From NCBI GenBank assembly GCA_029856145.1, contig JAHQWK010000008.1, positions 32,001 through 96,000 of the forward strand: DNA of 64,000 bases. Direction: 5' to 3'. Shown in pieces: positions 43,871 to 61,176 of the stretch (position 1 is its first letter; each line of letters starts with the position of its first letter). The position numbers were made by a program, and so were the translations under genes. A model generated the notes under the pieces. That model was given only the letters and a program-made list of their open reading frames with translations. It made no database searches and was not told where the DNA came from. Source of the stretch: Promethearchaeia archaeon (GTDB lineage Archaea > Asgardarchaeota > Lokiarchaeia > Sigyniarchaeales > SOKP01).

Positions 43871-43933
43871 AGAAAAAGTAAAAGGGTCAGTTCCCCAGCA
43901 AGTCCTTGAATAAAACGAGCGGGTGAGGTGAGT
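43871..43933 (+). repeat. Structured dispersed repeat, right-truncated copy
   Basis: agaaaaagtaaaagggtcagttccccagcaagtccttgaataaaacgagcgggtgaggtgagt; ends 5 bp from the ferredoxin stop. Confidence 0.9.
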
Positions 43934-43938
43934 TTCTC

Positions 43939-44160
43939 TTATTCCCATGCGGAATGATCTAAAATTGCGTTTGTTGGACACACATCTTGACACGCCATAC
44001 AATCAGTACACTCTCCAATATTCTCTGCTATGATTTTTCCATTAACTAATTTATAAACTTCTACAGGACACGCAATGATACAGTCCTCTGCACCAATGCA
44101 TCTGTCCAAGTCAATTTCAACCCAATGATCTTGATCTTCCCATTTTTTAATATTTACCAT
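43939..44160 (-). CDS. 2x[4Fe-4S] ferredoxin
   Basis: CIGAEDCIIACP (one Cys replaced) and CTDCMACQDVCP. Confidence 0.92.
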   Translation of the reverse strand: MVNIKKWEDQDHWVEIDLDRCIGAEDCIIACPVEVYKLVNGKIIAENIGECTDCMACQDVCPTNAILDHSAWE

Positions 44161-44293
44161 TTTTAGAATTCTCTTAGAATATTTAAGTTAAAATCAATTC
44201 ATTTTCTCTTTTTCTTCTTAAGGGTTGTTAAAATCTATTTAAATTTATAATTTATTCTTATTTTTCTAAAGCTTCTTTATTACCGTCGGAAAT

Positions 44294-45343
44294 CTAGTAT
44301 AAACGTAGAAAATTGAGAAATACTAATAAAAATCCTAATATAATGGTTAGTAAAAACAAATAAAAAGAATATACATTCCATTTATAGTGCCAAGTTCTTT
44401 TTTTGAGATCCCTCTTTCTTGATTTTTTGAAGCCAGTAATAGCTCCGGGTATGACAAGAATGATAGAAATTAAAGCTATTATACCATGAATAGTATAAAG
44501 TATGGCTCCTCTGTTTAAGAAGGTAGAGATAATCCAATATAAGAAAACACTTAAAGAAGTGAGAAAATAGCCAATACCAACGGTAATATGGAATTTCCTA
44601 TTTACAAATTTAGGAAGATCGTGAAAAAATTCAGTTACTGGAGACCTTTTTAATCCTGTCATAATAGCAACCCCTCCGAAAAGTAAAGAAATCGACAATA
44701 ACACAGCATGCCAAATCCAATCTGAGAAAGGTGTAATTGAAGCATCATCACTCCATCCTCGACTTTCCCAAAAACCTATATAATCATAATTTACAATCTC
44801 CATCCTAACGACCCATTTCACCCATTTATACCCTAGATGGTTTGGAGCAACAACTCTAACAGGAAATCCTTGTTCGACGGGAAGAACTTCACCATTCATT
44901 TCATATGCTAAAAGAACATTAGCCATACGTGCTTCTTCAATTGTCAAAGAGGAAGAATAATTATCTGCAGCATAAAAAACAACATCTATGGCCCCAGGTT
45001 TTACTTCCGCTAAATCTAGTAAATCCTTAACGGGAATTCCCTTCCATATTGCTGTAGCATATGGTCCATCAACACATTTTAGTGTAGCTAAAACCTCTTG
45101 TGAAGGTTGAGAAGTAAAGTTGGAATACGTAAAAGTCAAATTATTGTTGATATGTCCATTAATCGTTAATGTCCAATTATTTATCTCAATATGGGGAATT
45201 TCCCCCTTGCTTACTACAAAAAATTGATCATTAGGAGTAATAATAGCTCTACTAATTACGACTCCAGTCAATCCAATTAACGGAAGACATAACAAAATAA
45301 GAATTCCAATGTATTTTAAAAATATCTTTCTTTTTCTGTTCAT
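44294..45343 (-). CDS. Sulfite-oxidase-family molybdopterin oxidoreductase fused to a 4-TM His-containing membrane domain
   Basis: TPNDQFF, LKCVDG (Mo-ligand Cys), WKGIPV, LAYEMNGEVLPVEQGFPVR, GYKWVKWV, GFWESRGW; N-terminal anchor; four C-terminal helices each with a His. Confidence 0.88.
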   Translation of the reverse strand: MNRKRKIFLKYIGILILLCLPLIGLTGVVISRAIITPNDQFFVVSKGEIPHIEINNWTLTINGHINNNLTFTYSNFTSQPSQEVLATLKCVDGPYATAIWKGIPVKDLLDLAEVKPGAIDVVFYAADNYSSSLTIEEARMANVLLAYEMNGEVLPVEQGFPVRVVAPNHLGYKWVKWVVRMEIVNYDYIGFWESRGWSDDASITPFSDWIWHAVLLSISLLFGGVAIMTGLKRSPVTEFFHDLPKFVNRKFHITVGIGYFLTSLSVFLYWIISTFLNRGAILYTIHGIIALISIILVIPGAITGFKKSRKRDLKKRTWHYKWNVYSFYLFLLTIILGFLLVFLNFLRLY

Positions 45344-45502
45344 AGAATATTCTTCAAATCTGAAATATATAATATTTTATAAGAGAATTAAAGAGTTATG
45401 ATAATCGCTTACAATTAAATCAATTAAGATTCCCTAATTTTAAAATTTCCTTGCTATAAATTATAAGATTCATATTTAAAATTATGTATTTTAAAAAAAA
45501 TG

Positions 45503-45515
45503 AAAAGGGTCAGTT
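45503..45515 (+). repeat. Left-end remnant of the structured repeat
   Basis: aaaagggtcagtt, a 13-bp exact match to the repeat's left end, in an intergenic gap. Confidence 0.6.
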
Positions 45516-45604
45516 AATGCGGTTTTTTTTAGTAAATAAGGAAGATCTATAGTGAATTTTATTAAAATTAATACAATTAGATAATGAATAAAAATTAAAA
45601 AAAA

Positions 45605-47335
45605 TTATTTATATTTCTTATAAAATACGAGTCCTATTACTGCTATGGCTAGATATATTAGGTAATAATTACCGAAAGGAATTATATTCGGTTCTTCTTT
45701 AGCAATTCCAACTATTGCGAAAATACCCAAGTGATCTACACTGATTAGAACTTTTCCATCTCCAAGATCTATAAAATCTATTTTTTCCCACACTAAAGTA
45801 TCCATACTGAACCACCAAACTTCTATAGCCTTATATTTATTTACGTCGAAGTCAATGGTGATAGTTACAGGACCTTCCAAATTACTGGATTTGTTTATTA
45901 ATAAGTCAATGTACAGCAGACCATTTTTAAGGGATGCATATGTTGGATTATCAACCAACCCAGCAAAGAGTAAATGGGTAGCTTCAGAAACTGAAATCTC
46001 TACATTGATATCAAACTCTGTTGTACCATATGGGATGATGTTGAAATTATACCTTCCCTCGATTATTGTTGAATTTTTATAATATAAGAACCCCTGGTCA
46101 AAATTTGTTAAAGAAATACTATTATTCATGTATTTTATAATTCCATTTGGGAAATATTCTAAGTAATACACAATTTCTTGAGTTGATTTACGGATAATTT
46201 TTATCCAGTATTCACCATAAATTATCCTGTATTCTAAATCAAAATCCGGATCATACATTCTTATATTATCAAGCAGGTGATATAGATCAATACCCTTAGT
46301 TCCTTTTGGAACTAACAATGGCTGTCCACTCATGAAATATTCACCCGTCCTCATCAATAAATCTTCATTGGCAACAGCAATGGTAATATTTGAAGAGTCT
46401 AAAATCCAAGTTTCTGTTGGCCAATTCCATATAAAAATGTCTGCTCTGACTTCTTGAAATCCAGTTAATCCAAAATATGAGGATTTTGTAGAATTGATAA
46501 AGTCTATGATTTCTATTTTGTATTCCATTTTAAATAGGGATTTTCCCCCTGTATAAAAGATATCTCCAATATCTACGGCCCATTCAATGTCATCAAGAGG
46601 ATTAAAATCAAATATCCTAGTGAAATTAAGAGTAATACTATATGGAACCGTTCCTTGAATAGTAGTGTAAATTTCCCCAGTTTTTAATGTACCATTATTA
46701 TAATATTCTAATTTTACATATTCCCCGGATCCTGTACTGTTTTCAAGTAATATCGTATTAGGATCTGGAAATGATATGATTGGGGTTATATCGCCTCCTA
46801 AAAACATTATACAATCATCCTTCATTCTTTCAGCACACCATTGTATCATTAAACCATTGGTTCCATTTATTGGAATAAAAGGAGATGGGATTAGAGACAT
46901 GTAGGGATCAAATCCCAAGAAATCACCAACTCCCCCGTATGTAAAATTGACTAAAGAACAATTTACTATACCATAAGGCATTTCTTCTAATGAGTTGGTA
47001 GTTGTATTAAAAAATAAGTTTTTTAATTGGATTCCATAATAGTCGACACCAGTTCCTTTATAATTATTGAAATAAGTAATATCTGAGATATTATAGATAA
47101 CTCTAAATGGTCCAAAGAGAAGTTCAGTGCCATTATAATATCTAAGTTCCCAACCAACAACCGTACCCTCATCAAAATCCCAATAAATATTATCATTTGG
47201 AGGATCCAGAGGGGGATCGAAAGGTGTCGAAGCTACAGTATTTCTGATATTCAAATTTATCATTGAGAACAACAATATTAATGTAAATATTACTGACAAT
47301 ATTAAAACTCTATTTTTAACCATTTTGGATTTCAC
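45605..47335 (-). CDS. Secreted cell-surface glycoprotein with Loki-CTERM-like C-terminal anchor
   Basis: Signal peptide, many NxS/T sites, VDHLGIFAIVG, then IPFGNY-hydrophobic helix-KKYK. Confidence 0.85.
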   Translation of the reverse strand: MKSKMVKNRVLILSVIFTLILLFSMINLNIRNTVASTPFDPPLDPPNDNIYWDFDEGTVVGWELRYYNGTELLFGPFRVIYNISDITYFNNYKGTGVDYYGIQLKNLFFNTTTNSLEEMPYGIVNCSLVNFTYGGVGDFLGFDPYMSLIPSPFIPINGTNGLMIQWCAERMKDDCIMFLGGDITPIISFPDPNTILLENSTGSGEYVKLEYYNNGTLKTGEIYTTIQGTVPYSITLNFTRIFDFNPLDDIEWAVDIGDIFYTGGKSLFKMEYKIEIIDFINSTKSSYFGLTGFQEVRADIFIWNWPTETWILDSSNITIAVANEDLLMRTGEYFMSGQPLLVPKGTKGIDLYHLLDNIRMYDPDFDLEYRIIYGEYWIKIIRKSTQEIVYYLEYFPNGIIKYMNNSISLTNFDQGFLYYKNSTIIEGRYNFNIIPYGTTEFDINVEISVSEATHLLFAGLVDNPTYASLKNGLLYIDLLINKSSNLEGPVTITIDFDVNKYKAIEVWWFSMDTLVWEKIDFIDLGDGKVLISVDHLGIFAIVGIAKEEPNIIPFGNYYLIYLAIAVIGLVFYKKYK

Positions 47336-47500
47336 TAAATTTATTTATAAGGTATTAGGAATAATAGAATATTTAAATGTTTCTCACACCCCGAATTAAA
47401 TTGAATTTTTCATATTCCAGTAAGAAAACTGATTTCTGTTAAATTTGCTTAATTGGTACATTTTATAGTCTGAAAATTAGATTTAAATTTAACTGTTCCA

Positions 47501-47521
47501 GAAAAAGTAAAAGAGTCAGTT
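47501..47521 (+). repeat. Left-end remnant of the structured repeat
   Basis: gaaaaagtaaaagagtcagtt matches gaaaaagtaaaagggtcagtt (43872) at 20 of 21 positions. Confidence 0.75.
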
Positions 47522-47735
47522 TATTATTTACAACAAATATTTATAGTTCGATATAAAAGGTCATCTTATTAATTTTGATGATCATAAAAAAAAAAAATAA
47601 AAAAAAATTGTATCTAATAATATATTTTACCAACAAACGCTCTTTTAGCGTCAAACTGGGCCTTAACATTTTTGTAATATTCATAACCATTTTCCATTTT
47701 TTTTTCCACCATTTTTTTTGTTTAATTTTTTTTTG

Positions 47736-48098: not shown

Positions 48099-48200
48099 TA
48101 AAGGGTCAGTTCCCCGACAAGTCCTTTAATAGAATGAGTGGGTGAGGTGAGTATTCAAAGGAATAAATCAGGGAACTGGTGGTATAATTGTGTGTTCAGT
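48099..48200 (+). repeat. Structured dispersed repeat, full copy
   Basis: aagggtcagttcccc...gggaactggtggtataattgtgtgttcag; arms CAGTTCCC/GGGAACTG. Confidence 0.95.
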
Positions 48201-48274
48201 TCAGTAAATAAGGAAAATATTGATATTTTCTTTGAATTATTGACTTTAAGAAATTAAGATTGAGAGAAGAAGCT

Positions 48275-49372
48275 TTAATATGATTTAAATTCCCATTTAT
48301 CTAAATGCATATACATCGACCTTAGAATACTTGTTGTGTATGGCTCTCCGGATATTTCTTTAATATCTAGGAAAGCTTTTGTTATGTGTTTACAGAACTT
48401 CATACTCTTCATTCTTTTATTTATATAATTAGGACAGTCATGCTTAATAATTCTATTTTTTAAATCAATAAGTAAATTGTAATCTTGTCTCGATCCTGCA
48501 ATAACACTAAAAATTGTTTCACTGTTTACCATACCCCGAGTTTTCAGTTTAACATTCTTAATTTTTCGATTTTCGCGATCTACGTCTAATCTCGAGAAAT
48601 ACGTGATTAAATCCTCAAAACATAATTCTTTTGAACTCATTAATTCAGGGATAGGCCATTTGTCAAAAAGCATGTGCCTTCCAGCGACTAAAATATTAAT
48701 CTCTCCTGCATTTATTTCTTTAAGTGCTCTTGATAGATCCCATACCGTGGACCCAACTGTGAACACATCATCTATTATTAATACATCTTTTTCTTGGAGA
48801 TCATTAACATCTATTTTGTGAACCCCTTGGATATCATTAAATCGTTCTTCTAGTGTTTTTCCTTTATTTTTTCCTGTATCTTTCAATTTAAATGTTTTTT
48901 CAATAATACTTTCTAAATTAAATCCCAATTTTTTCAATTTTTTTAAAAAGGGATTAACAAGGTAAATGCATTGATTTTTCTCGTCTCTATTATACTTAGG
49001 GGGTATCGTTATATATGCTGTATTTTCAAATAAATCAATATTTTGGGTAAAGATGTAGGATAACCCATCTGCTAACAGTTTTCCCGCATATTTTTTAAAT
49101 TTTTCTCCTTTTTTAAATTTTAAAAGAGAAATAAGTTCAGAAAGAATGTTAATCGGGATTTTATAATTACCAATTTCATAAGCATGATATATACCTAATG
49201 TTTTGACTTTGTTAAAATACCATTCCTTAACTATATCGGGTGGAAGTGAGCAATTCAAGCATAAATCTAGACCTTTTTCCACTTGATTCATACACTTTAA
49301 GCAGAAAGGTTCTTGAATTAATCTTATTGGAATTTTCCCCTCGAGATAATAGGTATCCTTAAGATTTGTCAT
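48275..49372 (-). CDS. ComF-like phosphoribosyltransferase with N-terminal double Zn ribbon and C-terminal SWIM-like finger
   Basis: CLKC..CLNC; ERFNDIQG; PRPP-binding VLIIDDVFTVGST; HDCPNY...FCKHI. Confidence 0.85.
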   Translation of the reverse strand: MTNLKDTYYLEGKIPIRLIQEPFCLKCMNQVEKGLDLCLNCSLPPDIVKEWYFNKVKTLGIYHAYEIGNYKIPINILSELISLLKFKKGEKFKKYAGKLLADGLSYIFTQNIDLFENTAYITIPPKYNRDEKNQCIYLVNPFLKKLKKLGFNLESIIEKTFKLKDTGKNKGKTLEERFNDIQGVHKIDVNDLQEKDVLIIDDVFTVGSTVWDLSRALKEINAGEINILVAGRHMLFDKWPIPELMSSKELCFEDLITYFSRLDVDRENRKIKNVKLKTRGMVNSETIFSVIAGSRQDYNLLIDLKNRIIKHDCPNYINKRMKSMKFCKHITKAFLDIKEISGEPYTTSILRSMYMHLDKWEFKSY

Positions 49373-49397
49373 TTATGTTTCAAGAAAAAGAAAGTTA

Positions 49398-50408
49398 CTA
49401 ATATTTAAAAAGATTAGTTTGAACAACTGAATCTTTTTCTTTAGATTTTATTTGCTCTCTTTCTTCATATTCGAATAAGAGCATTTCTGCTATATAATCA
49501 ACATCATTTACATTACTAATTTTAGCTCCCCCCTTCTCCTTGATGATTTTGTTAGGAACATAAGCTTGCTCACATTCTTCAATTGGTTCTACTGCGATTG
49601 CTGGTTTTCCTTGTTCATCCCCAAAGCGTAACTGCCATTGAGTTCCACTAAACTTGTTTCCTTCCACAACAATATTTCCTAACCCTAATCCGCTTGTAAT
49701 TCGGTTCCTTATCTGCAATGCGCGTTTAGTTACGCTTTTGTAAGGGAATCTTTCAGATATTAAAGCTCCATTTGTCACAAGTTCCTTCACTAGTCTTTGA
49801 TTTTCTTTAGGATAAAGATTTAATATTCCGGAGGCAATAACACCTATAGCTCTCCCCCCGTTTTCAAGAGCACTCTCTATTGCGATTGTGTCGATACCTC
49901 TTGCGAATCCGCTGACAACCGTAAATCCTAATTCTGAGAATCTTTTTGCTATTGATCTTGCCATTTCTTTTCCATATTTTGTTGGATTTCTGGAGCCAAT
50001 AATTGCAACTGCTTTAAAATCTTGAGGATTAATTTCACCTTTTATAAATATTAGTTTTGGAGGTTGCTTAAGGAATTTTAAAATGGGAGGGTATCCTGTA
50101 TCAAAATAACTGAAACATTTTATTTGATTACTTTCACAAATTCTTAAATCTTGTTCTATTCTGTTAAAAACCTTGTTACTTTTTCTTTTTCCGAATTTGG
50201 TTATTTTCTCATCAAGCCCTCTAATTTGGGCGTTAAAATTGGTTTTTAAGCTTAGAAGGAATGACTTAAACTTATTTTCAGAAAAAGAAACAATTTCATT
50301 AAAGGAAAAGTCGTTCTTCTTAATGATTTTCAGGACAGATAACGGGAGTGATACTTCTCTACTTAAAAAAATGTAATCAATTAAATTTGACTGTTCCAGA
50401 ATTATCAC
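49398..50408 (-). CDS. dprA: DNA-processing protein DprA/Smf
   Basis: YPPILK..QPPKLIFIKG, VAIIGSRNPTKYG, VVSGFARGIDT, YPKEN, RNRITSGL, VVEG. Confidence 0.93.
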   Translation of the reverse strand: MIILEQSNLIDYIFLSREVSLPLSVLKIIKKNDFSFNEIVSFSENKFKSFLLSLKTNFNAQIRGLDEKITKFGKRKSNKVFNRIEQDLRICESNQIKCFSYFDTGYPPILKFLKQPPKLIFIKGEINPQDFKAVAIIGSRNPTKYGKEMARSIAKRFSELGFTVVSGFARGIDTIAIESALENGGRAIGVIASGILNLYPKENQRLVKELVTNGALISERFPYKSVTKRALQIRNRITSGLGLGNIVVEGNKFSGTQWQLRFGDEQGKPAIAVEPIEECEQAYVPNKIIKEKGGAKISNVNDVDYIAEMLLFEYEEREQIKSKEKDSVVQTNLFKY

Positions 50409-50644: not shown

Positions 50645-50754
50645 AGAAAAGTAAAAGGGTCAGTTCCCCGACAAGTCCTTTAATAGAATGAGTAGGTGAG
50701 GTGAGTATTCGAAGGAATGAATCAGGGAACTGATGGTAGAATTGTGTGTTCAGT
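50645..50754 (+). repeat. Structured dispersed repeat, full copy
   Basis: Near-identical to 53275-53380. Confidence 0.95.
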
Positions 50755-50819
50755 AAATGTGATTTTATTAGAAAAAATAAAAGTAAGATTTTTTACGCAT
50801 TGGCTAAATTCTACATATA

Positions 50820-51878
50820 TTATTCTTTTGAAGATGGATAATCACACTTAGTAGTTGGTTTAGTTTTCAATGCCAAGCGTTCTCGTTTCCAATCTTCTAT
50901 TCCCACGACTTTAAGGTTTTTTAAGAGTTCAAGTCCCTCAAAATTTTCAACAGGATTATCCCATAAACTTAGTTCCCTTAAATTAACTAAATTCTCAACA
51001 TTTTGCGTCTGCATTATTTTATTGTTGCTTAAATCTAAGTCTTCTAATTTCCATAACGAATCTAACCCCTCAATCTCAGAAATTTTGTTTTGTGCTAAGC
51101 TCAATCGCTTTAAATTTAGCAGACTTTCCAATCCTTTTATCTTAGAAATTTCATTTGCATCCAAATACAAATATTCCAAATTCTTAAGACTTTCTAGACC
51201 TTGTATTTCTTTAATTTTATTAGCACCAAGAATTAATTCTTTTAAATTACGTAAATTCTCAAGACCTTTTATCTTAGAAATTTCATTTCTATCTAAATAC
51301 AGATATTCTAAGTTCCTGAGACTCTCTAAACCTTCTAGTTCTTTAATTTTATTAGAACTGAGAATTAATTTCTTCAAATTATTTAAATTCTCAAGACCTT
51401 TGATTTCTGTAATATTATTCTCGTGAATGTTTAAAATCTCTAATTTTCTGAGCTCCTCCAGCCCTTTTATCTCAGTAATTTCATTTTGAGTGAGAATTAA
51501 CTTTTTTAAGCTAATTAAAGTGCCAAGCCCTTCTATATTTTTGATGGGATTACCATGATAATTAGCATCTCCAAAGTATAAACCTTCTAATTTCCTAAGG
51601 TTCGCTATTCCTTCAACCTTGGTAACGTAGTTCCCACTTATGTTTAAGAATTTTAGGTCTGTAAGATTCTCAAGATTCTCAAGTTTATCAATAATATTTC
51701 CCATAAGATACAATACTTCTAAATTATTCAATGTATCCAACCCCTCAACCTCAGAAAGACTACACGGAATAGTTATAAGCTCTAACTTATTATTATGAGC
51801 AAAATATTTTTTTCCTCGAATAATAGCATACTCTTCAGAATTTTTATCTGCCATCTCCAAGATATTTTTACGAAACAT
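50820..51878 (-). CDS. Leucine-rich repeat protein (SDS22/internalin-like), paralog 1
   Basis: 22-aa repeats LxxLxLxxNxIxxIxGLxxLxx. Confidence 0.95.
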   Translation of the reverse strand: MFRKNILEMADKNSEEYAIIRGKKYFAHNNKLELITIPCSLSEVEGLDTLNNLEVLYLMGNIIDKLENLENLTDLKFLNISGNYVTKVEGIANLRKLEGLYFGDANYHGNPIKNIEGLGTLISLKKLILTQNEITEIKGLEELRKLEILNIHENNITEIKGLENLNNLKKLILSSNKIKELEGLESLRNLEYLYLDRNEISKIKGLENLRNLKELILGANKIKEIQGLESLKNLEYLYLDANEISKIKGLESLLNLKRLSLAQNKISEIEGLDSLWKLEDLDLSNNKIMQTQNVENLVNLRELSLWDNPVENFEGLELLKNLKVVGIEDWKRERLALKTKPTTKCDYPSSKE

Positions 51879-51956
51879 ACCTATATATATTTATGGGCAG
51901 TGATAACTATGAGAGTTCCATAAAAATAAAGAAATTAATTATTTCTAATATTCTTT

Positions 51957-52063
51957 AAAAAAGTAAAGGGTCAGTTCCCCGAAAAGTCCTTGAATAAAAC
52001 GAGTGGATGAGGTGAGTATTCAACGGAAAGGCGCAGGGAACTGGTGATAGAATTGTGTGTTCA
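51957..52063 (+). repeat. Structured dispersed repeat, full (diverged) copy
   Basis: Same arms; internal substitutions (ttgaata/tattcaa inner stem). Confidence 0.93.
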
Positions 52064-52126
52064 TGTTATCAAATTTAATTTTACTAGAAAAAATAAAAGT
52101 AAGATTACTTACGCATTAGCTAAATT

Positions 52127-53194
52127 TTACGTATAATATTCTTTTGAAGATGGATAATCACACTTAGTAGTTGGTTTAGTTTTCAATGCCAAACGCTCTC
52201 GTTTCCAATCTTCTATTCCCACGAATCGAAGATTTTTCAAGGAATTAAGCCCTCCAAACTCTTCAATAGGATTTTTCTCTAAAGTGATTACTTCTAAATT
52301 TGCTAAATTCTCAAGACCTTGAATTTGGGTTATGTTGTTCTCATCTAGCGCTAGACTTTCTAACTTCCATAACGAATCTAACCCCTCAATCTCAGAAATC
52401 TTGTTTTGTGTTAAACTCAATCGCTTCAAATTTAGTAGACCTTCCAACCCTTTTATCTTAGAAATTTGATTTCGTTCTAATTCTAAATGCTGCAAATTCC
52501 TGAGGTTATTTAAACCTTTGATTTCTTTAATTTTATTAGATTCAAGAACTAATTGTTTTAGATTGCTTAATTTATCAAGACCTTTGATCTCTGAAATTTT
52601 ATTCATGCCTAAATCTAATAATTCCAATTTTTTAAGGTTATCTAAACCTTTTATTTCCCTAATTTCATTAAGACCGAGATATAATTCTCTCAAATTGCTT
52701 AGTTTATCAAGACCTTTAATTTCTGTTATTTTATTTTGATCTAATTGTAAGATCTCTAAATTTCTAAGGTATTCTAACCCCTTTATCTCAAATATTTCAT
52801 TTTGAAAGAAAGAAAGCTTCTTTAAGTTGGTTAACGTGTTTAATCCTTTAATTTCTGAAATGGGATTGCCATGATTATTACCGTCTCCAAACCATAAAGT
52901 CTCTAGATTCGTTAAATTTTCTAAACCTTCGATATCAGTAATATAATTTCCACTTAAAATCAAAAGCTTTAAGTTCGTGAGGGCCTTTAGATTTTCAAGT
53001 CTCTCAATGCTATTAGTATTGAGAACCAATGTTCTTAAATTTTCTAAATTCTCGAGGCCTTCAATTTCAGAAAGACTACATGTGACATCAATGAGCTCTA
53101 ATACATTATCACAAATAAAATGTTTCTTTCCACGAATAAGAACATATTCCTCAGAATTTTTGTCTGCCATCTCTAAGATATTTTTACGAAGCAC
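52127..53194 (-). CDS. Leucine-rich repeat protein (SDS22-like), paralog 2
   Basis: Same repeat type; N-terminus and last ~28 aa nearly identical to paralog 1. Confidence 0.95.
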   Translation of the reverse strand: MLRKNILEMADKNSEEYVLIRGKKHFICDNVLELIDVTCSLSEIEGLENLENLRTLVLNTNSIERLENLKALTNLKLLILSGNYITDIEGLENLTNLETLWFGDGNNHGNPISEIKGLNTLTNLKKLSFFQNEIFEIKGLEYLRNLEILQLDQNKITEIKGLDKLSNLRELYLGLNEIREIKGLDNLKKLELLDLGMNKISEIKGLDKLSNLKQLVLESNKIKEIKGLNNLRNLQHLELERNQISKIKGLEGLLNLKRLSLTQNKISEIEGLDSLWKLESLALDENNITQIQGLENLANLEVITLEKNPIEEFGGLNSLKNLRFVGIEDWKRERLALKTKPTTKCDYPSSKEYYT

Positions 53195-53274
53195 ACCTAT
53201 ATATATTTATGGGCAGTGATAACTATGAGAATTCCATAAAAATAAGGAAATTAATCATTTCTAATATTCTTTTA

Positions 53275-53380
53275 AAAAGTAGAAGGTCAGTTCCCCGACA
53301 AGTCCTTTAATAGAATGAGTGGGTGAGGTGAGTATTCAAAGGAATGAATCAGGGAACTGATGATAGAATTGTGTGTTCAG
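53275..53380 (+). repeat. Structured dispersed repeat, full copy
   Basis: TCAGTTCCC...GGGAACTGA outer stem; TCCTTT.AATA/TATT.AAAGGA inner stem. Confidence 0.95.
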
Positions 53381-53424
53381 CTCAGTAATTTTGAATTTAC
53401 CAGAAAAAATAAAAGTAAGATTAC

Positions 53425-53691
53425 TTACGCATTAGCCAAATATTCGTTTAGCACGATGTTTAATTCTACTTCTGAGTTTTGGATCTTCTTCAACAGATTC
53501 CTCAGTCCATACTCATTTAATAGTAGCTCGATGAGATTCTTATAAACTGCGGTAATATTATCTTTACCAGCTTCATAATAAAATTTATCATCACTAAGGG
53601 TAAGATCTAAAAGATCATATAAACCTTTCAAGGCGTCCTTTATATTTTCAAAATTCCTTACTGCTTTTTCTTTCGTTTTTGAACTATTCAT
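53425..53691 (-). CDS. Hypothetical helical protein (88 aa)
   Basis: ATG with strong SD TGAGGTGAG and an upstream TTTATATA box; its C-terminal codons recur elsewhere with synonymous changes. Confidence 0.85.
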   Translation of the reverse strand: MNSSKTKEKAVRNFENIKDALKGLYDLLDLTLSDDKFYYEAGKDNITAVYKNLIELLLNEYGLRNLLKKIQNSEVELNIVLNEYLANA

Positions 53692-53722
53692 TTAACTTAC
53701 TCACCTCAATATTATTATGTAA

Positions 53723-53746
53723 ATGATCATATATAAAGATGATCAT
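53723..53746 (-). promoter_or_regulatory. TATA box flanked by two ATGATCAT palindromes
   Basis: atgatcat-atataaag-atgatcat about 32-55 bp upstream of the 88-aa gene start. Confidence 0.55.
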
Positions 53747-54361: not shown

Positions 54362-55339
54362 ATGAAAATAAAAATAAGAACAGCAAAATATAAACATAGT
54401 GGAGAACCTTTACAATTTAAAAAAATTGATATAGAATGTAAAGGCGCAGGAGTAAAAGAGGATCCATTTATATTGGATTCTTCTTCAGATATCCCTAATG
54501 ATTTTGAAATATTAGAATCTAAAGTACACATAATTATAAAAAATTGTCATGTTAACTCTTTAGTGTTAGGATATTCTAAGAACATCACTATAAAAGAGTG
54601 TTCTTTTAGAGCTGTATTTTTATACCATTGTGCTGATATAACAATAAATAAATGTCATATTAATTTTATGACTCTCAATGTATGTCGAAATTGCTTATTA
54701 AAGAATTCAAAATTCGATACAGAATTCAAGATATTTAAATGTTATAACAACACATTTAAAGCATGTGAATGGGATATATTTTTTGATTCAAATGACTTAA
54801 GTAGAGGAAATATCCTTGAAAGTATTGATGATCCTTTTATTGAAGATATCTTAGAAATACAAAAACCTTTAGTAAAAACAACAGATTCGTTTGCTATTTC
54901 AACATCTACTTTTTGGCATGGCGTTATTTTAAAAGATATCGAATGTCAAGGAACTGGAACAGTAAAGGATCCCATTATAATTGATAATTCAAATGTAAAA
55001 AAAATTGACCTAAAAGATATTGTAATATACCATAATAGACATCATGTTATCTTTAGAAACTTAACATTAAAAAAAATAAAGATATATGACAGTAAACATG
55101 TGACACTTGAAGGTTGTGATATTTCAAAGTCAATTCATCTAAAATTTTGTTCAGATATTAAAATTAGATCAATTTCAATGAAATTATTAAAATTTGGTGC
55201 ATGTCAAGATACATTCGTAGAAAACTCTGAAATTAAAGAACTTGATATATATAAAGGATATGAAGGATTTGTAAATTTAAGTAAATGTACTTTTAATAAA
55301 ACAAACGAAAACACTATTAAACATATCATATTTTCTTAG
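54362..55339 (+). CDS. Right-handed beta-helix protein, internally duplicated
   Basis: Two IECxGxGxxxDPxIxD modules, each followed by (S/C)xNITIxxC-type parallel beta-helix repeats; no signal peptide. Confidence 0.8.
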   Translation: MKIKIRTAKYKHSGEPLQFKKIDIECKGAGVKEDPFILDSSSDIPNDFEILESKVHIIIKNCHVNSLVLGYSKNITIKECSFRAVFLYHCADITINKCHINFMTLNVCRNCLLKNSKFDTEFKIFKCYNNTFKACEWDIFFDSNDLSRGNILESIDDPFIEDILEIQKPLVKTTDSFAISTSTFWHGVILKDIECQGTGTVKDPIIIDNSNVKKIDLKDIVIYHNRHHVIFRNLTLKKIKIYDSKHVTLEGCDISKSIHLKFCSDIKIRSISMKLLKFGACQDTFVENSEIKELDIYKGYEGFVNLSKCTFNKTNENTIKHIIFS

Positions 55340-55706
55340 AGAGATACAAAGGTTCATTTTTTTTTTAAATCTTAGCTACTATTTCCGAATCTCTTTTTTT
55401 CAATTTTTCACTGACAATTTCTATATAGTATAAAAATAAACGTCCAGTTAAATTAATGATAAATGAGGAAATTGTTAGATAACTTAGATTATTAGCTCCT
55501 CTGCCTTCCCCTCTAATACCGATAAAATTAAAGTTCCAATCATATAAAACATCACTGTTATTAGCTTCTATTATAATAATAATTGATATAGTTGTAAGAA
55601 TTATACAAGAAAGTGATGCCTAGTTAATCAAAAATAATATTTTCGTCAAGGAAAAATTACAATATCTAAATATAATGCTAAATATTTTAATTTCAAAACA
55701 AGAGAC

Positions 55707-57017
55707 GTGTCTACCAAATTGAACGGCACTTCCGCGGTCATGATGAACTTACCGATTTCTGTGCTCCAATATGTCCCCTGGTTCTGTGACTTCTCTAATT
55801 CTCCGATGGGCGCAAAGCCCGAAACCTTCGGAGAATGGTTCTGGAAACCGCTGGTCGCTCTAGCGAAAGCAATTGTCGGCGTCTTTGTCACCATAGTAAT
55901 GGCTATCGTAGAACTTGTAAAGTTGATCATCGATTTCTTTATCCAAATTTTCATGGACATCTTACCAATTCTAGGATATATACTATGGCTAATAATTCGC
56001 ACATTAATATTAATTTTCATTTGGATAATGTTTGTATTTACACTTTTAACAATATTAATTTTGTTGGTATCAACAATCGGATTAGGTCTTATCTTAGATA
56101 TATTTATGAATCTTGATATTAAGACTTCTTCAAATAGCGTAATTATAAGTGGTGATCTTTATTTATCCTTCAATTACAATATAGCTATAGAATATAATGA
56201 TTTTCTTTGTTTTTATATCCCTTCAATTAAGGCTTATCTTAATACTACTGATTTTGTTCTTGAATATTCTTTTAATTTTGGCTCAACAGATTTAAATATT
56301 ATAGAATTTAACAACTCACTGTTTGATGATTTATCTGAAAGTGGGCCAAATCAATCTTCAGAATCACTTCCAAAAATAAGTGGTATTTCATCGGTATTTA
56401 GCAATGGATTTGAATTTCTCTCTGGTTTAGGTTTTACAATGTCAGCGCTAGGAATACTTGTTGGTTTACAAGCAGGTATTTTAGCATTTAACTCAAATGA
56501 TCTTTATAACAACATAATATTTATCGTAGGAATTGCTTTATTCATAGCCAGTGTAATATTATTAGTTATTAAAATTTTGATTGATCCAGAAGAATTTTCA
56601 CAATGGATGCTTTGGGGTATGGGAGTAGGATGTATTATTTCTGCAATTAGGTTTTTCAAAACGAAAGATTACATTGATGATACCTTTCAATATAAAGCTT
56701 GGCATAGAAAAAAAGCCGGAGATAAAGATTTCTTTTCTATGCTCAAAAATATAAAGCTCATATGTGGTGGTGTTGGGTTTGGTTTAAGTATTGCAGAAAT
56801 GTTTGGTGATTGGGATGATAATGAAATATATAAGGTATGTTCAGCAATATTTTCGGTAATAGCAGGTTGTTTATCTCTAAAACTTGCAAATCATGCTTTG
56901 ATTATGTTAAAGGGGAAAAATAGAACTTACAAAACTAGAATTGCAGGTATTTATGGAGGAGGAAGTCTTATCCTAGCAGCAATCCTCTTTTCAATTGCGG
57001 CATGGAGTAATAATTAA
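55707..57017 (+). CDS. Multi-pass membrane protein, probably a detached C-terminal module of a larger protein
   Basis: 436 aa, GTG start without SD, long amphipathic/hydrophobic helices, sharp GC drop after the first ~250 bp. Confidence 0.75.
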   Translation: MSTKLNGTSAVMMNLPISVLQYVPWFCDFSNSPMGAKPETFGEWFWKPLVALAKAIVGVFVTIVMAIVELVKLIIDFFIQIFMDILPILGYILWLIIRTLILIFIWIMFVFTLLTILILLVSTIGLGLILDIFMNLDIKTSSNSVIISGDLYLSFNYNIAIEYNDFLCFYIPSIKAYLNTTDFVLEYSFNFGSTDLNIIEFNNSLFDDLSESGPNQSSESLPKISGISSVFSNGFEFLSGLGFTMSALGILVGLQAGILAFNSNDLYNNIIFIVGIALFIASVILLVIKILIDPEEFSQWMLWGMGVGCIISAIRFFKTKDYIDDTFQYKAWHRKKAGDKDFFSMLKNIKLICGGVGFGLSIAEMFGDWDDNEIYKVCSAIFSVIAGCLSLKLANHALIMLKGKNRTYKTRIAGIYGGGSLILAAILFSIAAWSNN

Positions 57018-57144
57018 AAATAAATTTATAACAAATTTTTTTTTATAATATTATAGAAATTGCATTATTAGAACTTAATTAACAGGACATAATATTTATA
57101 AATTATAAAATAATCATCCAAATAGTTTTAAAGTAAAGTGGAGT

Positions 57145-57783
57145 TTGATGGAGGAAAAATTTAAAAACTTCCTTGAGGAGGATGAAAAAATTTTATGGAT
57201 ACGAAAACAAAAAAAGAATTTATTGTTGATTATACCATTTGGTATTAAAGTAGGAATAATTTCTTCTTTCATTTTCTTAATTTTAATTTTGATAACAATA
57301 ATCTTAGAAACGATTTTAGGGATTGTAATTATTATATCAATTTTTGTGATTATAATTTGGTGGATAATCTTGTACATCAACCATCATATTAATAGAATGA
57401 AAAAAATATTACAATTATCTTCAAATGAATTAAGACAATATGATTTTATTGAAATTATTACGAGTAAGCGCTATATTCGGAAGAGTTATTTATTAAATTA
57501 TTTTAAAGATTTTTTAAAATATCCTAAAAATGTAATAGAACAAATTGGCGACATCGTATTTATAAAGCTAGATTTTATTGAAAAAGTTATTGTGGAATAT
57601 AAGTTTAGAAGGATAGGGTTATTTCTAAAAGGCTATAAACCAAAATTTTTTAATGATACAGATTTTTTCATAGAATTTACTGAAAACGACTTTGATGAGC
57701 TTTTAAAAATATTAATAAATACTCTAAATTTGGAAAAGAAAGAATCAAATCCCATTTTTGAGGAATATTTCAAAAAAAAGTAA
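57145..57783 (+). CDS. Membrane protein (LxxxEKILW + 2 TM + soluble domain), immunity-like
   Basis: FLEEDEKILW N-terminus, two TM helices, very AT-rich; GGAG upstream of ATG 57148. Confidence 0.8.
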   Translation: MMEEKFKNFLEEDEKILWIRKQKKNLLLIIPFGIKVGIISSFIFLILILITIILETILGIVIIISIFVIIIWWIILYINHHINRMKKILQLSSNELRQYDFIEIITSKRYIRKSYLLNYFKDFLKYPKNVIEQIGDIVFIKLDFIEKVIVEYKFRRIGLFLKGYKPKFFNDTDFFIEFTENDFDELLKILINTLNLEKKESNPIFEEYFKKK

Positions 57784-57787
57784 TATG

Positions 57788-58027
57788 TTATTGATTTGAA
57801 TAAGCTTCTTTTAATCCAATATATTTATTCCAGGAGTTAAAGAAAGCATGCATATATATATAAGAATTAATGAGTTCAATTACATAGGATTTTCCTTCAT
57901 CCGTTATTTCTATCGCATATCTTGGTCTAAAACGTTTATCCTTAAAATTTAATTTTTGTAGGATAAAAATATGACCACATTTATCACACAAATCAGGCAA
58001 ATGACAAAAGGGATTTAGCTGTTTCAA
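57788..58027 (-). CDS. Doubtful ORF or remnant, wHTH-wing-like motif
   Basis: YAIEITDEGKSYV resembles the PadR/MarR wing; TTG start, no SD. Confidence 0.3.
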   Translation of the reverse strand: MKQLNPFCHLPDLCDKCGHIFILQKLNFKDKRFRPRYAIEITDEGKSYVIELINSYIYMHAFFNSWNKYIGLKEAYSNQ

Positions 58028-58126
58028 AATATCAAATGAATTTACAAGAGCTCCATGGCACAGGATATTATAGTTCTAAACGAAATAGTTAATAGAAAAT
58101 TCAATACAGATTAGGAGGTAACTAAA

Positions 58127-58225
58127 ATGTTTAAAAGAAATAAAGGATTTAGGATCTCTGAATTTCTTATCCAAAATATTACTATTAATAAAATTATTCA
58201 AAATTTGCTTAACGACAATAACTAG
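58127..58225 (+). CDS. Small ORF (32 aa) with strong SD, or truncated gene
   Basis: AGGAGGT 7 nt before ATG; MFKRNKGFRISEFLIQNITINKIIQNLLNDNN*. Confidence 0.35.
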   Translation: MFKRNKGFRISEFLIQNITINKIIQNLLNDNN

Positions 58226-58244
58226 ATCCATAGAACATATTATT

Positions 58245-58925
58245 ATGAAATTTACAATTTATAGGAATTATAATTTTGGAAGATTGCTCTTAACTGAGGA
58301 TATTGATATAGAATGTGAAGGAGAAGGGACAGAGGAAGATCCACTTATAATTATACCCTCAGAGAAAATCCCTACAAATTTCTTTCTAAAAAACTCCAAA
58401 ATTCGAGTAATTTTAAAAAATTTTAATACACACAATATCAGTTTAATTTCTTGTTTGAATGTAACGATTGAAAAATGTAAATTAAATAAATTTTTTATAT
58501 TAGAAAGTCATGACATTGAAATTAAAAGTACATCCTGTCATTATTTAAAAATATTAAAATCCTCGTATATTAATATTGAAAATTCCTTTTTTGAGAGGGT
58601 AAAAGTGAAGAATTCAATAAATAAAATATTATTAAGAGATTGTACTATTAATCGAATTAAAAGAAACCATTTTAATAATATTCAATTTGATAAATGTAAA
58701 ATTTTAAATCCATATTCGTTTAAATCAATAAATTTTCTATTAAAAGACAATAAAAGAGCAATACTTATAGTTGCAGTTATTACTATTATTATAATAGTAG
58801 GAGTAATTTTAGCACTATATAACTTTGTATTATTATTAATATTTATCCCAGTTTTAATATTCATTAAATGGTATTTTAGTTTTAAGGAAGAAAGAGAAGT
58901 GAGAAAAAGAAAAAAGTTAGAATAA
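58245..58925 (+). CDS. Beta-helix protein with C-terminal TM hairpin, paralog of 54362..55339
   Basis: IECEGEGTEEDPLII + beta-helix repeats + hydrophobic tail + basic end. Confidence 0.8.
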   Translation: MKFTIYRNYNFGRLLLTEDIDIECEGEGTEEDPLIIIPSEKIPTNFFLKNSKIRVILKNFNTHNISLISCLNVTIEKCKLNKFFILESHDIEIKSTSCHYLKILKSSYINIENSFFERVKVKNSINKILLRDCTINRIKRNHFNNIQFDKCKILNPYSFKSINFLLKDNKRAILIVAVITIIIIVGVILALYNFVLLLIFIPVLIFIKWYFSFKEEREVRKRKKLE

Positions 58926-59291
58926 TATATATTGTAAGAAAAAATTCATTAATGTAACTTTAAATATTCTTAATTATAGAAACAAAAAGCTAGAGATGTA
59001 ATCGCGGGGGGGCTAATTTTAATGTTTTTAGCATCTGGTTTTAGCTTCTTTTGTGCTTTCTCTCCTATATTTCGACGTATAGTAGAATGATGTAGAAAAT
59101 TATATTTTTAATTTTTAATTCTTTATTATATAAAGAATCCGAAAATATACGCAAAGGTAAATTAATAAATGGAGCTACTCCACGAGTTTATAAATTAACC
59201 AATTTAGAATTACGGAAAGATAATTTACTAGATCAAGATTTTTGATTGTAAATAAAAGATAAGATATAAAAAAAGAAATATTATTATTAGT

Positions 59292-59528
59292 TTAATGATG
59301 AATAGGGCGTCCTTTCTTATGGATAGATTTACCTACTACAGCTTCACTACCTTCGAGTACCATTTCTGAAATTGTAGGGTGGCTATGGATGGTCTCTCCA
59401 ATATCATGAATGGTTAACCCATGTTGCATTGCTAGTGCTATTTCAGCTATCAATTCGGGGGCTTCAGTTCCAATACAGGAAGCACCGAGAATTTTATGTG
59501 TAGTTTTATCAGCAAGAACCATAAAGAA
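59292..59528 (-). pseudogene. Duplicated 3' end of lpdA (copy 2)
   Basis: FFMVLADKTTHKILGASCIG...HSHPTISEM...GRPIHH* aligns to the last ~78 aa of 61517..62998. Confidence 0.93.
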
Positions 59529-59695
59529 CAAATATCAGATTTCAAAATTCAAGGCCTTCAAACTTTTCAATAGGATTTGAAATCAAATTTCCCCTTAAAT
59601 TTAGTCTTTTTAAATTTATATTTGAATCAACGCTTTTATCTTTGAAATCTCATTTCAATTATATTAACAATTAATATGATAAAAAAGAAAAAAAG

Positions 59696-60244
59696 TTAAA
59701 AATTTATTACTTCCGGATTGCTTTTAAAGAATTTTTTAAAAGATTTTCCATTCGTAACATACATTCCAGAAAGTTTTTCTCCAATTAATTTTCTTGATTC
59801 GGGTAATTTCTTTTTAATAGCAGCAGGTATACCTACTGCCAAAGATCTACGTGGAAGTTCTTGATTTATTAAAACAGCTCCAGCAGCAATTTGAGATCCT
59901 TCTTCAACTTTAGTTCTATGTAAAACATTAGATCCAATGCCTATTACACACCCATTTTCTATTGTACAAGGGCCGTGTATCATTGCATGGTGTCCTATTA
60001 TACAATTATCGCCAATGTCAACAAAAGAACCTACCTCCATATGAATAGTAACATTTTCTTGAATGCTGGTGTTTTTTCCAATTTTAATAGGACCGAAATC
60101 TCCACGTAAAACTACTCCAAACCAAATATTACTTCCCTCGTCAATTGAGACATCTCCAACTATTACAGCAGTAGGAGCAATATAAACAGATTCATGTATT
60201 TGGGGTTTTTTTCCTGTTCTCGGACTTGCCATAATTATTGGCAA
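59696..60244 (-). CDS. Gamma carbonic anhydrase family (YrdA/PaaY-like hexapeptide repeat protein)
   Basis: IAPTAVIVGDV, IWFGVVLRGD, IQENVTIH, IGHHAMIHGPC; GGTGA SD upstream. Confidence 0.92.
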   Translation of the reverse strand: MPIIMASPRTGKKPQIHESVYIAPTAVIVGDVSIDEGSNIWFGVVLRGDFGPIKIGKNTSIQENVTIHMEVGSFVDIGDNCIIGHHAMIHGPCTIENGCVIGIGSNVLHRTKVEEGSQIAAGAVLINQELPRRSLAVGIPAAIKKKLPESRKLIGEKLSGMYVTNGKSFKKFFKSNPEVINF

Positions 60245-60330
60245 AATTAATCACCTTAAACAATTTACTAAATTATTAAAAATTAGAACGCTCTTTTATT
60301 GATAAAAATACGTAGTGATATTTAACATTA

Positions 60331-60582
60331 TTGTCAAAGGTCAACAATATTAATCAGAAAGATTTTCCTGCAAACACTACATTTATCTCTAACGGAACAA
60401 TTAATGTAGATTTATGGAATAATGCCTTAGAGGGATTAATAACTATTGTCTTCTATGCAAATGATACATCAGGGAATATTGGATCTGCATCCGTTCTTAT
60501 AACAAAGAAGATTCCCTCTAAAGCAATAATTCTAGGATAAAACACATTTTGGATGATTGGAGCGATTTTTGGAGGGGTGTAG
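60331..60582 (+). pseudogene. C-terminal remnant of a Loki-CTERM surface protein
   Basis: ITIVFYANDTSGNIG Ig-like strand, then I-L-G-stop-NTFWMIGAIFGGV: a degraded IPGY-type sorting signal. Confidence 0.6.
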
Positions 60583-60750
60583 CTCTGATAAGAAAGTTTA
60601 AAGAAAAAGCAAAAAATTAATCTTTCTTAAATATAATTTGAAATAATAAGAAATATACCAATTTAGGATTACAGAAAGGTAAATTACTAGATCAAGATTT
60701 TAGATTGAGCACAAAAGATAAGATATGAAAAAAGAAATATTATTTTTAGT

Positions 60751-60987
60751 TTATTGATGAATAGGACGTCCTTTTTTGTGTATAGCTTTTCCTACAACCG
60801 ATTCTGCTGCTTCAAGTACCATCTCCGAAATGGTCGGATGAGAGTGAATTGTCTCTGCAATGTCATGTATCGTTAACCCATGTTGCATTGCTAATGCTAT
60901 TTCAGCTATCAATTCGGGGGCTTCAGTTCCAATACAAGATGCTCCTAAGATTTTATGGGAGCTTTTATCAGCTAAAATCATTAAGAA
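60751..60987 (-). pseudogene. Duplicated 3' end of lpdA (copy 1)
   Basis: FLMILADKSSHKILGASCIG...GRPIHQ*; same 5' breakpoint as copy 2. Confidence 0.93.
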
Positions 60988-60989
60988 AC

Positions 60990-61019
60990 GTTCTTAATGA
61001 ATATTTAGCAAATGCGTAA
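60990..61019 (+). pseudogene. 3' remnant of the 88-aa gene (inverted)
   Basis: GTT CTT AAT GAA TAT TTA GCA AAT GCG TAA = VLNEYLANA*, identical in protein to the end of 53425..53691. Confidence 0.85.
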
Positions 61020-61072
61020 GAATCCTTTTTTCTGATTTTACATTTTCTCTTAAATTTAATTTAATGCCCTAA

Positions 61073-61176
61073 ACTGAACACACAATTCTATCATCAGTTC
61101 CCTGATTCATTCCTTTGAATACTCACCTCACACACTCATTTTATTCAAGGGTTTGCCGGGGAACTGACCCTTTTAC
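61073..61176 (-). repeat. Structured dispersed repeat, full copy, inverted
   Basis: Reverse complement of the 53275 copy; its GTAAAAGGG end overlaps the TAA of 61173..61409. Confidence 0.95.

What the first reader, a model, noticed from the sequence alone, without database searches (positions are those of the whole stretch)
43871..61176. Unrecognised ~105-bp nested-hairpin repeat family (5 full + 3 truncated copies)
Seen: full copies at 48099, 50645, 51957, 53275 and 61073 (inverted); truncated at 43871, 45503 and 47501. Consensus AAAGTAAAAGGG-TCAGTTCCC-CGACAAG-TCCTTTAATA-GAATGAGTGGGTGAGGTGAG-TATTCAAAGGA-ATGAATCA-GGGAACTGA-TGATAGAATTGTGTGTTCAG, with outer and inner stems and bulges. Variants A>G in the right arms (GGGAACTGG, TTCGAAGGA) keep T/U-G wobble pairs only on the GGGTCAG strand, which is opposite to most adjacent genes. 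That hints this strand is the one that folds. Inference: ncRNA, REP/IS200-IS605-derived hairpin, or an attC-like ssDNA recombination site.
Basis: partly seen in the sequence, partly recalled or inferred. Interest (0 to 1): 0.85.

Follow-up and report, generated by a model that had tools for sequence, protein, structure and literature searches.

The report
Asgard hairpin blocking own ribosome site
In one group of Asgard archaea, a small gene ends in an RNA hairpin whose loop matches that same gene's ribosome-binding site, probably silencing it, and the "repeats" are leftover copies of this hairpin pushed aside each time foreign genes were inserted behind the gene.

Summary
The repeats are real (5 full, 1 half, 3 stubs) and occur only at this locus of a Lokiarchaeia (Promethearchaeota) genome. 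They are not attC, REP or IS ends, and match no Rfam family. In relatives the empty locus holds ONE copy, just behind a conserved 88-aa gene (p88, 53425-53691, minus strand). The loop pairs over 10-14 bp with p88's own ribosome-binding site (53698-53708) in all 24 genomes with the close orthologue. That site is unique in 3.55 Mb, pairing survives G-C > G.U > A-U changes, and the nearest outgroup lacks both hairpin and extended site. The extra copies are displaced 3' ends left when variable cargo (DprA/PRTase, LRR, Argonaute, SIR2-TPR) was added behind p88. Breakpoints vary, no recombinase is linked, and 13 genes elsewhere or nearby show the same scar. Best reading: a new archaeal anti-Shine-Dalgarno regulatory RNA on a homology-driven insertion hotspot. 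Expression and p88 function are untested. Earlier scan notes flagged the loop match on this same DNA only.

The parts
53287..53360 (-). Primary (resident) hairpin: 11-12-bp outer stem, small internal loop, 8-bp inner stem with one bulged base, 20-25-nt open C/U-rich loop
   Evidence: fold z -6.7 on minus versus -2.7 on plus; orthologous single copy in empty loci; model R1
53324..53334 (-). Anti-RBS loop motif (UACUCACCUCA on the minus strand), the most conserved part of the loop
   Evidence: columns 31-40 are 91-100% conserved; opening cost 0.26 kcal/mol; pairs with 53698-53708
53270..53286 (-). U-rich tract after the hairpin; probable transcript 3' end and the fixed end of every duplicated unit
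   Evidence: T-rich in all orthologues; copy homology mostly ends 2-22 nt beyond the stem; terminator role inferred
53425..53691 (-). p88: conserved 88-aa acidic, all-helical, non-hydrophobic protein of unknown function, named hits only in Asgard MAGs
   Evidence: 72-94% identical orthologues; crude pN 0.06 versus pS 0.70; no Pfam, NCBIfam or PADLOC hit; generic helical fold; GRAVY -0.40
53698..53708 (-). p88 ribosome-binding region TGAGGTGAGTA (Shine-Dalgarno GAGGUGA plus flanks), target of the loop
   Evidence: the 10-mer occurs only here and in the five repeats in 3.55 Mb; best of 3061 start regions against the conserved loop
53723..53746 (-). p88 promoter: TATA box flanked by two ATGATCAT palindromes (candidate operator)
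   Evidence: sequence; TATA box conserved in orthologues; function inferred
51957..52125 (-). Displaced copy 1: hairpin, spacer and last 6 codons of p88
50645..50809 (-). Displaced copy 2: hairpin, spacer and last 6 codons of p88
48099..48207 (-). Displaced copy 3: hairpin and part of the spacer; hybrid with copy 53275 in two assemblies lacking the 5.2-kb interval
47502..47563 (-). Two terminal stubs (47502-47521; 47530-47563, the latter sharing the flank of copy 48099)
45503..45546 (-). Stub: 3' end of the element, close to a remnant of the 48099-type flank (core apparently deleted)
43874..43933 (-). Oldest displaced half copy next to p89, cut just after the anti-RBS motif
60980..61179 (+). 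Inverted copy with the last about 12 codons of p88, joined back to back to an lpdA 3' fragment
   Evidence: same junction type in G056; p88 and hairpin are inverted relative to lpdA in G065, G074, G075, G057
60751..60995 (-). Displaced lpdA 3' end (codons about 414-492)
59292..59528 (-). Second displaced lpdA 3' end (codons about 416-493)
61517..62998 (-). lpdA (dihydrolipoamide dehydrogenase family), right core anchor
   Evidence: Pfam; adjacent to p88 in empty loci
43555..43824 (+). p89: Cys-rich conserved gene, left core anchor, convergent on the hairpin in empty loci
48275..50408 (-). Cargo: DprA plus ComF-like PRTase pair (ShosTA-like defence module or DNA-uptake pair)
   Evidence: ShosA 1e-56, ShosT 4e-7; dprA and comF below cut-offs
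50820..53194 (-). Cargo: two leucine-rich-repeat genes, each followed by a displaced copy
   Evidence: Pfam LRR
43939..47335 (-). Older cargo: small ferredoxin, molybdopterin oxidoreductase, 576-aa secreted/membrane protein

Best explanation
The element is a structured 3'-terminal RNA of the 88-aa gene p88, read on the minus strand. Two stems hold out a loop that pairs with p88's own Shine-Dalgarno region and so shuts off or tunes translation, most likely in cis as a 5'-3' fold-back (a kissing-type contact). The multi-copy array is a by-product. Foreign DNA carrying a relative's p88 3' end and hairpin plus cargo is added by homology-anchored recombination (single crossover of circularised DNA, or homology-facilitated illegitimate recombination). 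This restores an intact hairpin behind p88 and pushes the old 3' end outward, where it decays. Recombination between copies also removes or swaps cargo. SHOWN here: single-copy ancestral position, strand asymmetry, unique and conserved loop-RBS complementarity, polar array with fixed 3' and variable 5' ends, the same scar at 13 genes. INFERRED: transcription, cis geometry, repression, the recombination pathway, and why p88 needs repression.
For: One copy between p89 and p88 in empty loci. Strong model hits fall in exactly the 24 genomes with the close p88 orthologue, and the hairpin stays with p88 through inversions. Minus-strand folding. Target 10-mer unique in the genome; ranked first of 3061 start regions. 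Duplex of 10-14 bp in 24/24 genomes; one position shows G-C, G.U (G034, L136) and A-U (G111, G124, L135) but never A-C; G068 has a C-G swap plus G.U. Outgroup orthologue L220 at the same locus lacks both hairpin and extended RBS; more distant homologues lack the hairpin. Pairing-breaking changes in 6/27 displaced versus 0/19 resident copies. Variable breakpoints, +33 to about +200. 16 of 17 nearby gene-end fragments lie on the predicted side, all on the same strand, with no shared motif. Hybrid repeats in L142, L148, G041, G037 and G034.
Against: No expression data. Double-sided covariation inside the hairpin does not exceed shuffles; stems are mostly invariant. Loop-RBS covariation rests on two or three independent events. 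Most spacers contain U-tracts that could end the p88 transcript before the hairpin. Unconstrained whole-mRNA folding gave the 5'-3' pairing in only one of five genomes (the program cannot model kissing contacts). Many displaced copies keep the motif intact (21/27). Some breakpoints recur (17 nt into p88 in G000 and G072), which a site-specific enzyme would also give. The L142/L148 hybrids could be assembly collapse over a 61-bp identical stretch.
Confidence: 0.6

Rival explanations
1. The hairpin is a separate small RNA (own promoter, or cut from the p88 3' UTR) acting in trans on the p88 RBS, possibly as antitoxin of a harmful p88. Displaced copies could then still work, and the pair would keep the insertion site intact.
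For: U-tracts often follow the p88 stop; a stable hairpin with exposed loop and its own U-tract is typical of such RNAs (own knowledge); 21/27 displaced copies keep a pairing motif, even where stems have drifted; every insertion leaves an intact copy behind p88.
Against: No conserved TATA box in the spacer of about 45-80 nt. p88 is 88 aa, acidic and non-hydrophobic, sits at a core syntenic site, is absent from viral contigs, and its homologues exist without any hairpin. A second candidate target (CDC48-like start region) did not co-vary.
Confidence: 0.2
2. The hairpin is a folded single-stranded DNA recombination site (attC-like) used by a recombinase encoded elsewhere, making a new integron-like cassette array.
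For: Stem, unpaired spacer, bulged stem and variable loop resemble attC architecture; the array is polar with one or two genes per interval in this window; a DUF5680 gene travels between hybrid copies in G037 and G034; integrons are common in Asgard MAGs (PMC9668308); relatives have unlinked tyrosine recombinases.
Against: No RYYYAAC/GTTRRRY ends; breakpoints scatter over about 170 nt, including inside p88; cargo lies in both orientations and reaches about 11 kb; lpdA and 12 other genes show the same scar without a hairpin; no recombinase seen in the fetched hotspot regions; does not explain loop-RBS co-variation.
Confidence: 0.1
3. The plus strand is the RNA and shows a copy of the p88 RBS as a decoy for a protein or the ribosome.
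For: Same 11-mer as the RBS on the plus strand; terminal-pair wobbles favour plus; some orthologues fold about equally or better on plus.
Against: Weaker folding in all five window copies; 17 versus 3 inner wobbles; mismatches between loop and RBS are mostly those that give G.U on the minus strand; the U-tract is 3' only on the minus strand.
Confidence: 0.05
4. It is an ordinary terminator-type hairpin between convergent genes, or an IS200/IS605, REP or MITE relic, amplified by neutral local duplication; the RBS match is a historical accident.
For: Lies between convergent p89 and p88; copies within a genome usually resemble the resident copy.
Against: Loop motif is as conserved as the stems while the rest of the loop varies in length and sequence; co-variation with the RBS; different cargo between copies, not duplicated genes; one locus per genome; no Y1 transposase found.
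Confidence: 0.05

Closest known systems
Type I toxin mRNAs with 5'-3' long-distance SD sequestration (Helicobacter aapA/IsoA, hok/Sok)
   Same: An anti-SD far downstream of a short ORF pairs with the SD (PMC6733600; PMC8594479); short transcript ending in a stem and U-tract.
   Different: Archaeal; anti-SD displayed in the loop of a self-contained hairpin instead of in an end-to-end stem; protein is 88 aa and non-hydrophobic (type I toxins 20-60 aa); no antisense antitoxin identified; toxicity untested.
Methanosarcina mazei sRNA162 (archaeal RBS-masking sRNA)
   Same: Single-stranded region pairs with and masks an RBS in an archaeon (PMC3510493).
   Different: sRNA162 is a separate transcript whose RBS target is in trans; here the only conserved target is the gene immediately upstream on the same strand.
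Sequential-displacement arrays: Vibrio cholerae T6SS immunity arrays, Rhs/CDI orphan tips
   Same: New DNA added at an anchor by homology-facilitated recombination shifts the old 3' end outward and builds a polar, integron-like array without an integrase (PMC5361080).
   Different: Here the displaced piece is a regulatory RNA with a few codons, the cargo is unrelated to the anchor gene, and the same scar occurs at many housekeeping genes of the genome.
Integrons and CALINs (attC arrays), reported in Asgard MAGs
   Same: Hairpin repeats interspersed with accessory genes, no integrase nearby (PMC9668308).
   Different: No R boxes, no fixed crossover, mixed orientation, multi-gene cargo with own upstream regions, conserved single copy at a core site.
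tRNA/tmRNA-targeted genomic islands (own knowledge)
   Same: Intact RNA gene restored on one side, displaced 3' fragment on the far side, tandem stacking.
   Different: Target is not a tRNA or any Rfam RNA; no integrase seen in the cargo; breakpoints vary.

Membership tests
attC / integron or CALIN | R'' (RYYYAAC) and R' (GTTRRRY) at the ends of the site | tested here: not met
   no such pair in any copy on either strand; the stem reads GTT first, AAC last
attC / integron or CALIN | Fixed crossover point; co-oriented single-gene cassettes | tested here: not met
   breakpoints +33 to about +200; mixed orientation and intervals up to about 11 kb
attC / integron or CALIN | IntI tyrosine recombinase (may be absent in CALINs) | tested here: inconclusive
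   none in G000, but five relatives have unlinked ones that G000 lacks, so the assembly may miss it
REP / IS200-IS605 ends | Dispersed copies or paired left/right ends, with Y1 transposase | tested here: not met
   all copies at one locus; single copy at a fixed core site in relatives; PF01797 not found in G000, 97% complete
Known Rfam RNA families | Score above gathering threshold | tested here: not met
Type I toxin-antitoxin | Anti-SD sequence that sequesters the SD of the short ORF | tested here: met
   computed complementarity, uniqueness and co-variation; pairing not shown experimentally
Type I toxin-antitoxin | Small (20-60 aa), usually hydrophobic protein | tested here: not met
   88 aa, GRAVY -0.40, highest 19-residue hydropathy 0.47
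Type I toxin-antitoxin | Toxicity neutralised by a separate antisense RNA | not testable with these tools
   needs expression and transcript mapping
RBS-masking regulatory RNA (cis or trans) | Accessible seed complementary to a specific RBS, conserved by compensatory change | tested here: met
   few independent events
RBS-masking regulatory RNA (cis or trans) | Transcribed, and represses translation | not testable with these tools
   no RNA data available
Homology-driven displacement hotspot | Displaced anchor 3' ends downstream of variable cargo, variable breakpoints, no dedicated recombinase | tested here: met

The most novel reading that the evidence does not exclude
p88 and its hairpin form an archaeal RNA-controlled addiction module of a new type (soluble helical toxin, loop-displayed anti-SD RNA that also works from displaced copies). 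Because losing the hairpin would be lethal, every insertion must bring a new copy, which turns the site into a self-renewing, integrase-free platform for defence genes in Asgard archaea.
Probability: 0.15. Interest if true: 0.88.

Novelty: new variant of a known kind. Interest (0 to 1): 0.62.

Why it matters
My paper searches found nothing on RNA-based translation control in Asgard archaea. This is a concrete RNA-target pair, absent from Rfam, with natural compensatory variants that can be rebuilt as a reporter in a tractable archaeon or in vitro. It suggests that SD sequestration by a distant 3' element, described for bacterial toxin mRNAs, also exists in relatives of eukaryotes. It also points to a route by which Lokiarchaeia gain genes without mobile-element enzymes: homology-anchored addition that leaves displaced gene ends, seen at 13 genes of one genome. 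Such arrays can be mistaken for integrase-less integrons. Limits: one subclade (24 of 135 genomes of the family), no known function for p88, no expression data.

Tried and rejected
Rfam at gathering and E-value thresholds: nothing. Viral contigs: neither hairpin nor p88. Model R1 found nothing in 125 sampled genomes outside the family. A loose pattern scan of all species genomes gave Promethearchaeota hits plus scattered bacterial hits that I treated as chance and did not follow up. p88: no Pfam, NCBIfam, PADLOC or Atlas name; fold searches gave only generic helical matches, best Z 7.5. The 50%-representative search never left the queue. A small ORF after the plus-strand SD-like motif is not conserved (ATG missing in two window copies). 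Inversion between the two 11-mers flanking p88 was never seen (24/24 same orientation). H/ACA, C/D-box and SECIS readings were considered by eye only and dropped: the conserved loop motif is explained by the RBS and no Rfam model scores. A CDC48-like gene as second target failed co-variation. Distant p88 homologues have no downstream anti-RBS. The 436-aa ORF at 55707 does not match the C-terminal part of the 8181-aa ORF. Literature searches found no description of this element.
Full report
OBSERVATION. Five full copies are 81-93% identical, the 43874 copy is a half, and the two short stubs share a 13-mer found five times in the 3.55-Mb genome, all in this locus. A further stub lies at 47530-47563. 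The window also encodes an actin and heterodisulfide-reductase-type genes, and named relatives are Promethearchaeota such as Loki_b32, so the host is a Lokiarchaeia-type Asgard archaeon. Rfam has no match.

THE ANCESTRAL STATE IS ONE COPY. In G068, G091, G111, G124 and several metagenome contigs the order is hdrC, p89, one element, p88, lpdA, with the element about 45-80 nt behind the p88 stop. Other genomes carry unrelated cargo there and two to four copies. A covariance model finds strong hits in 24 of 135 family genomes. These are the same 24 that have the close p88 orthologue. Three more genomes have only decayed copies, and none of 125 sampled genomes outside the family has a hit. Where p88 is inverted relative to lpdA, the hairpin moves with it. 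The element therefore belongs to p88.

STRAND. The minus (p88-sense) strand folds better in all five copies (z -4.2 to -7.0 versus -1.5 to -2.8). It gives an 11-12-bp stem, a small internal loop, an 8-bp bulged stem, an open loop and a 3' U-tract. True two-sided covariation inside the hairpin is not above shuffles. Structure support is therefore conservation, wobble asymmetry and energy, not covariation.

THE LOOP TARGETS p88'S OWN RBS. The 5' part of the loop (53324-53334) is as conserved as the stems, while the rest of the loop varies in length and sequence. It is the exact complement of 53698-53708, the Shine-Dalgarno region of p88. That 10-mer occurs only there and in the five repeats, and p88 ranks first of 3061 start regions against the conserved loop (-18.6 kcal/mol, next -17.0, mean -4.6). 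Opening the loop costs 0.26 kcal/mol, and the duplex is stronger than one with a textbook 16S anti-SD (-11.5; that sequence is from my own knowledge, since the 16S 3' end is not assembled). All 24 genomes keep 10-14 bp. At one position G-C changes to G.U (G034, L136) and to A-U (G111, G124, L135), never to A-C; G068 swaps U-A for C-G and adds a G.U. Matched pairs beat all 20,000 permutations, but the genomes are related and only two or three independent events underlie this. The nearest outgroup orthologue (L220, 67% identical, also convergent on a p89-size gene next to hdrC) lacks both the hairpin and the extended RBS, and more distant homologues lack the hairpin. Displaced copies break pairing more often (6/27 versus 0/19), though most keep it. 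Whether the contact is in cis or by a separate RNA is open: there is no conserved TATA box in the spacer, but U-tracts there could end the p88 transcript. Repression of translation is inferred from the bacterial and archaeal precedents below. p88 is under strong purifying selection, acidic, non-hydrophobic and helical, with no named family.

WHY THERE ARE MANY COPIES. The p88-adjacent copy is always intact. Other copies keep the RNA's 3' end up to the U-tract but start at scattered points, from mid-loop to about 21 codons inside p88. In the window, integrity falls with distance from p88. This is the pattern left when incoming DNA bearing a relative's p88 3' end, hairpin and cargo recombines in, restores the hairpin and displaces the old end. 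The neighbour lpdA shows the same scar with no hairpin: two fragments here, and breakpoints near codons 427, 449 and 463 in relatives. Genome-wide, 14 nearby 3' fragments of 13 genes and 3 nearby 5' fragments are all on the gene's strand, and 16 of 17 lie on the predicted side (p 1.4e-4), with no shared breakpoint motif (crude ORF calls, and some may be decayed paralogues). The inverted 61073 copy is joined back to back to an lpdA fragment, as expected of a circle from a donor with the inverted arrangement that entered through lpdA (inference; similar junction in G056). Hybrid copies show recombination within the repeat. G041 has a half native, half window-like copy, and a DUF5680 gene travels with the same right arm in G037 and G034. 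Two assemblies with an identical p88 protein lack the 5.2-kb LRR-LRR-DprA-PRTase interval and carry one hybrid copy, while six have the LRR gene next (collapse over a 61-bp identical stretch is not excluded). No tyrosine, serine or Y1 recombinase was found in G000. That is weak evidence, since five relatives have tyrosine recombinases, though none on the hotspot contig. Cargo is rich in defence-type genes: a ShosTA-like DprA/PRTase pair here, and Argonaute, SIR2-TPR and TIR proteins in relatives.

COMPARISON. It works like the 5'-3' SD sequestration of aapA and hok mRNAs (PMC6733600, PMC8594479) or the RBS masking of archaeal sRNA162 (PMC3510493). It fails type I toxin membership on protein size and hydrophobicity. 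The array works like the Vibrio T6SS and Rhs displacement arrays (PMC5361080). It resembles the Asgard CALINs (PMC9668308) only in outline: R boxes, a fixed crossover and uniform orientation are not met. I found no paper describing the element. Earlier scan notes on this same DNA raised the loop-RBS match and the displaced ends; I had reached both before reading them and tested them across genomes.

VERDICT. Real feature; new variant of known kinds (anti-SD regulatory RNA plus homology-driven displacement hotspot). Approximate odds: loop-RBS pairing on the minus strand is functional 0.75; extra copies are displaced ends from homology-anchored insertion 0.75; full model 0.6. Interest 0.62.

Noticed in passing
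window 913-25458 (+): An 8181-aa open reading frame with no Pfam match in either half, just upstream of the actin gene.
   Followed up: partly
G000 contigs C1, C3, C9, C11, C24, C25, C29, C7: Twelve other genes have a displaced copy of their 3' end nearby, mostly 0.8-9 kb downstream, suggesting a genome-wide integrase-free route of gene gain.
   Followed up: partly
window 60979-60999: The lpdA and p88 fragments meet at a 9-bp inverted repeat with a 3-nt spacer (first pointed out by an earlier scan note); could be microhomology or a recombinase half-site.
   Followed up: partly
window 53723-53746: ATGATCAT palindromes flank the p88 TATA box; similar words lie between hdrC and p89 (about 43370-43420). 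Possible shared regulator; an AsnC/Lrp gene lies at 63293.
   Followed up: no
window 48275-50408: DprA plus zinc-ribbon ComF-like PRTase; the only DprA found in the genome. Defence (ShosTA-like) or DNA uptake.
   Followed up: partly
L064:6339-9755 (G041): Prokaryotic Argonaute (PADLOC 6e-63) with two unannotated neighbours as cargo in the same hotspot.
   Followed up: partly
G000 whole assembly: No tyrosine recombinase found, although five relatives each have one of XerA size; probably a gap in the assembly.
   Followed up: partly
G091, G111, G124: Three genomes labelled as another genus (3 of 42) carry the same p89-hairpin-p88-lpdA block; transfer or labelling not examined.
   Followed up: no
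window 54362-58925 (+): Low-GC (26%) cargo between p88 and lpdA, including two similar-looking beta-helix-like proteins and a 436-aa ORF that looks like the cut end of a larger membrane protein.
   Followed up: partly
L116 (G028:C84), L117 (G024:C15): In more distant relatives p88 homologues (two in tandem in G024) are divergent from tandem p89-like genes next to hdrC, so the gene pair predates the hairpin.
   Followed up: partly
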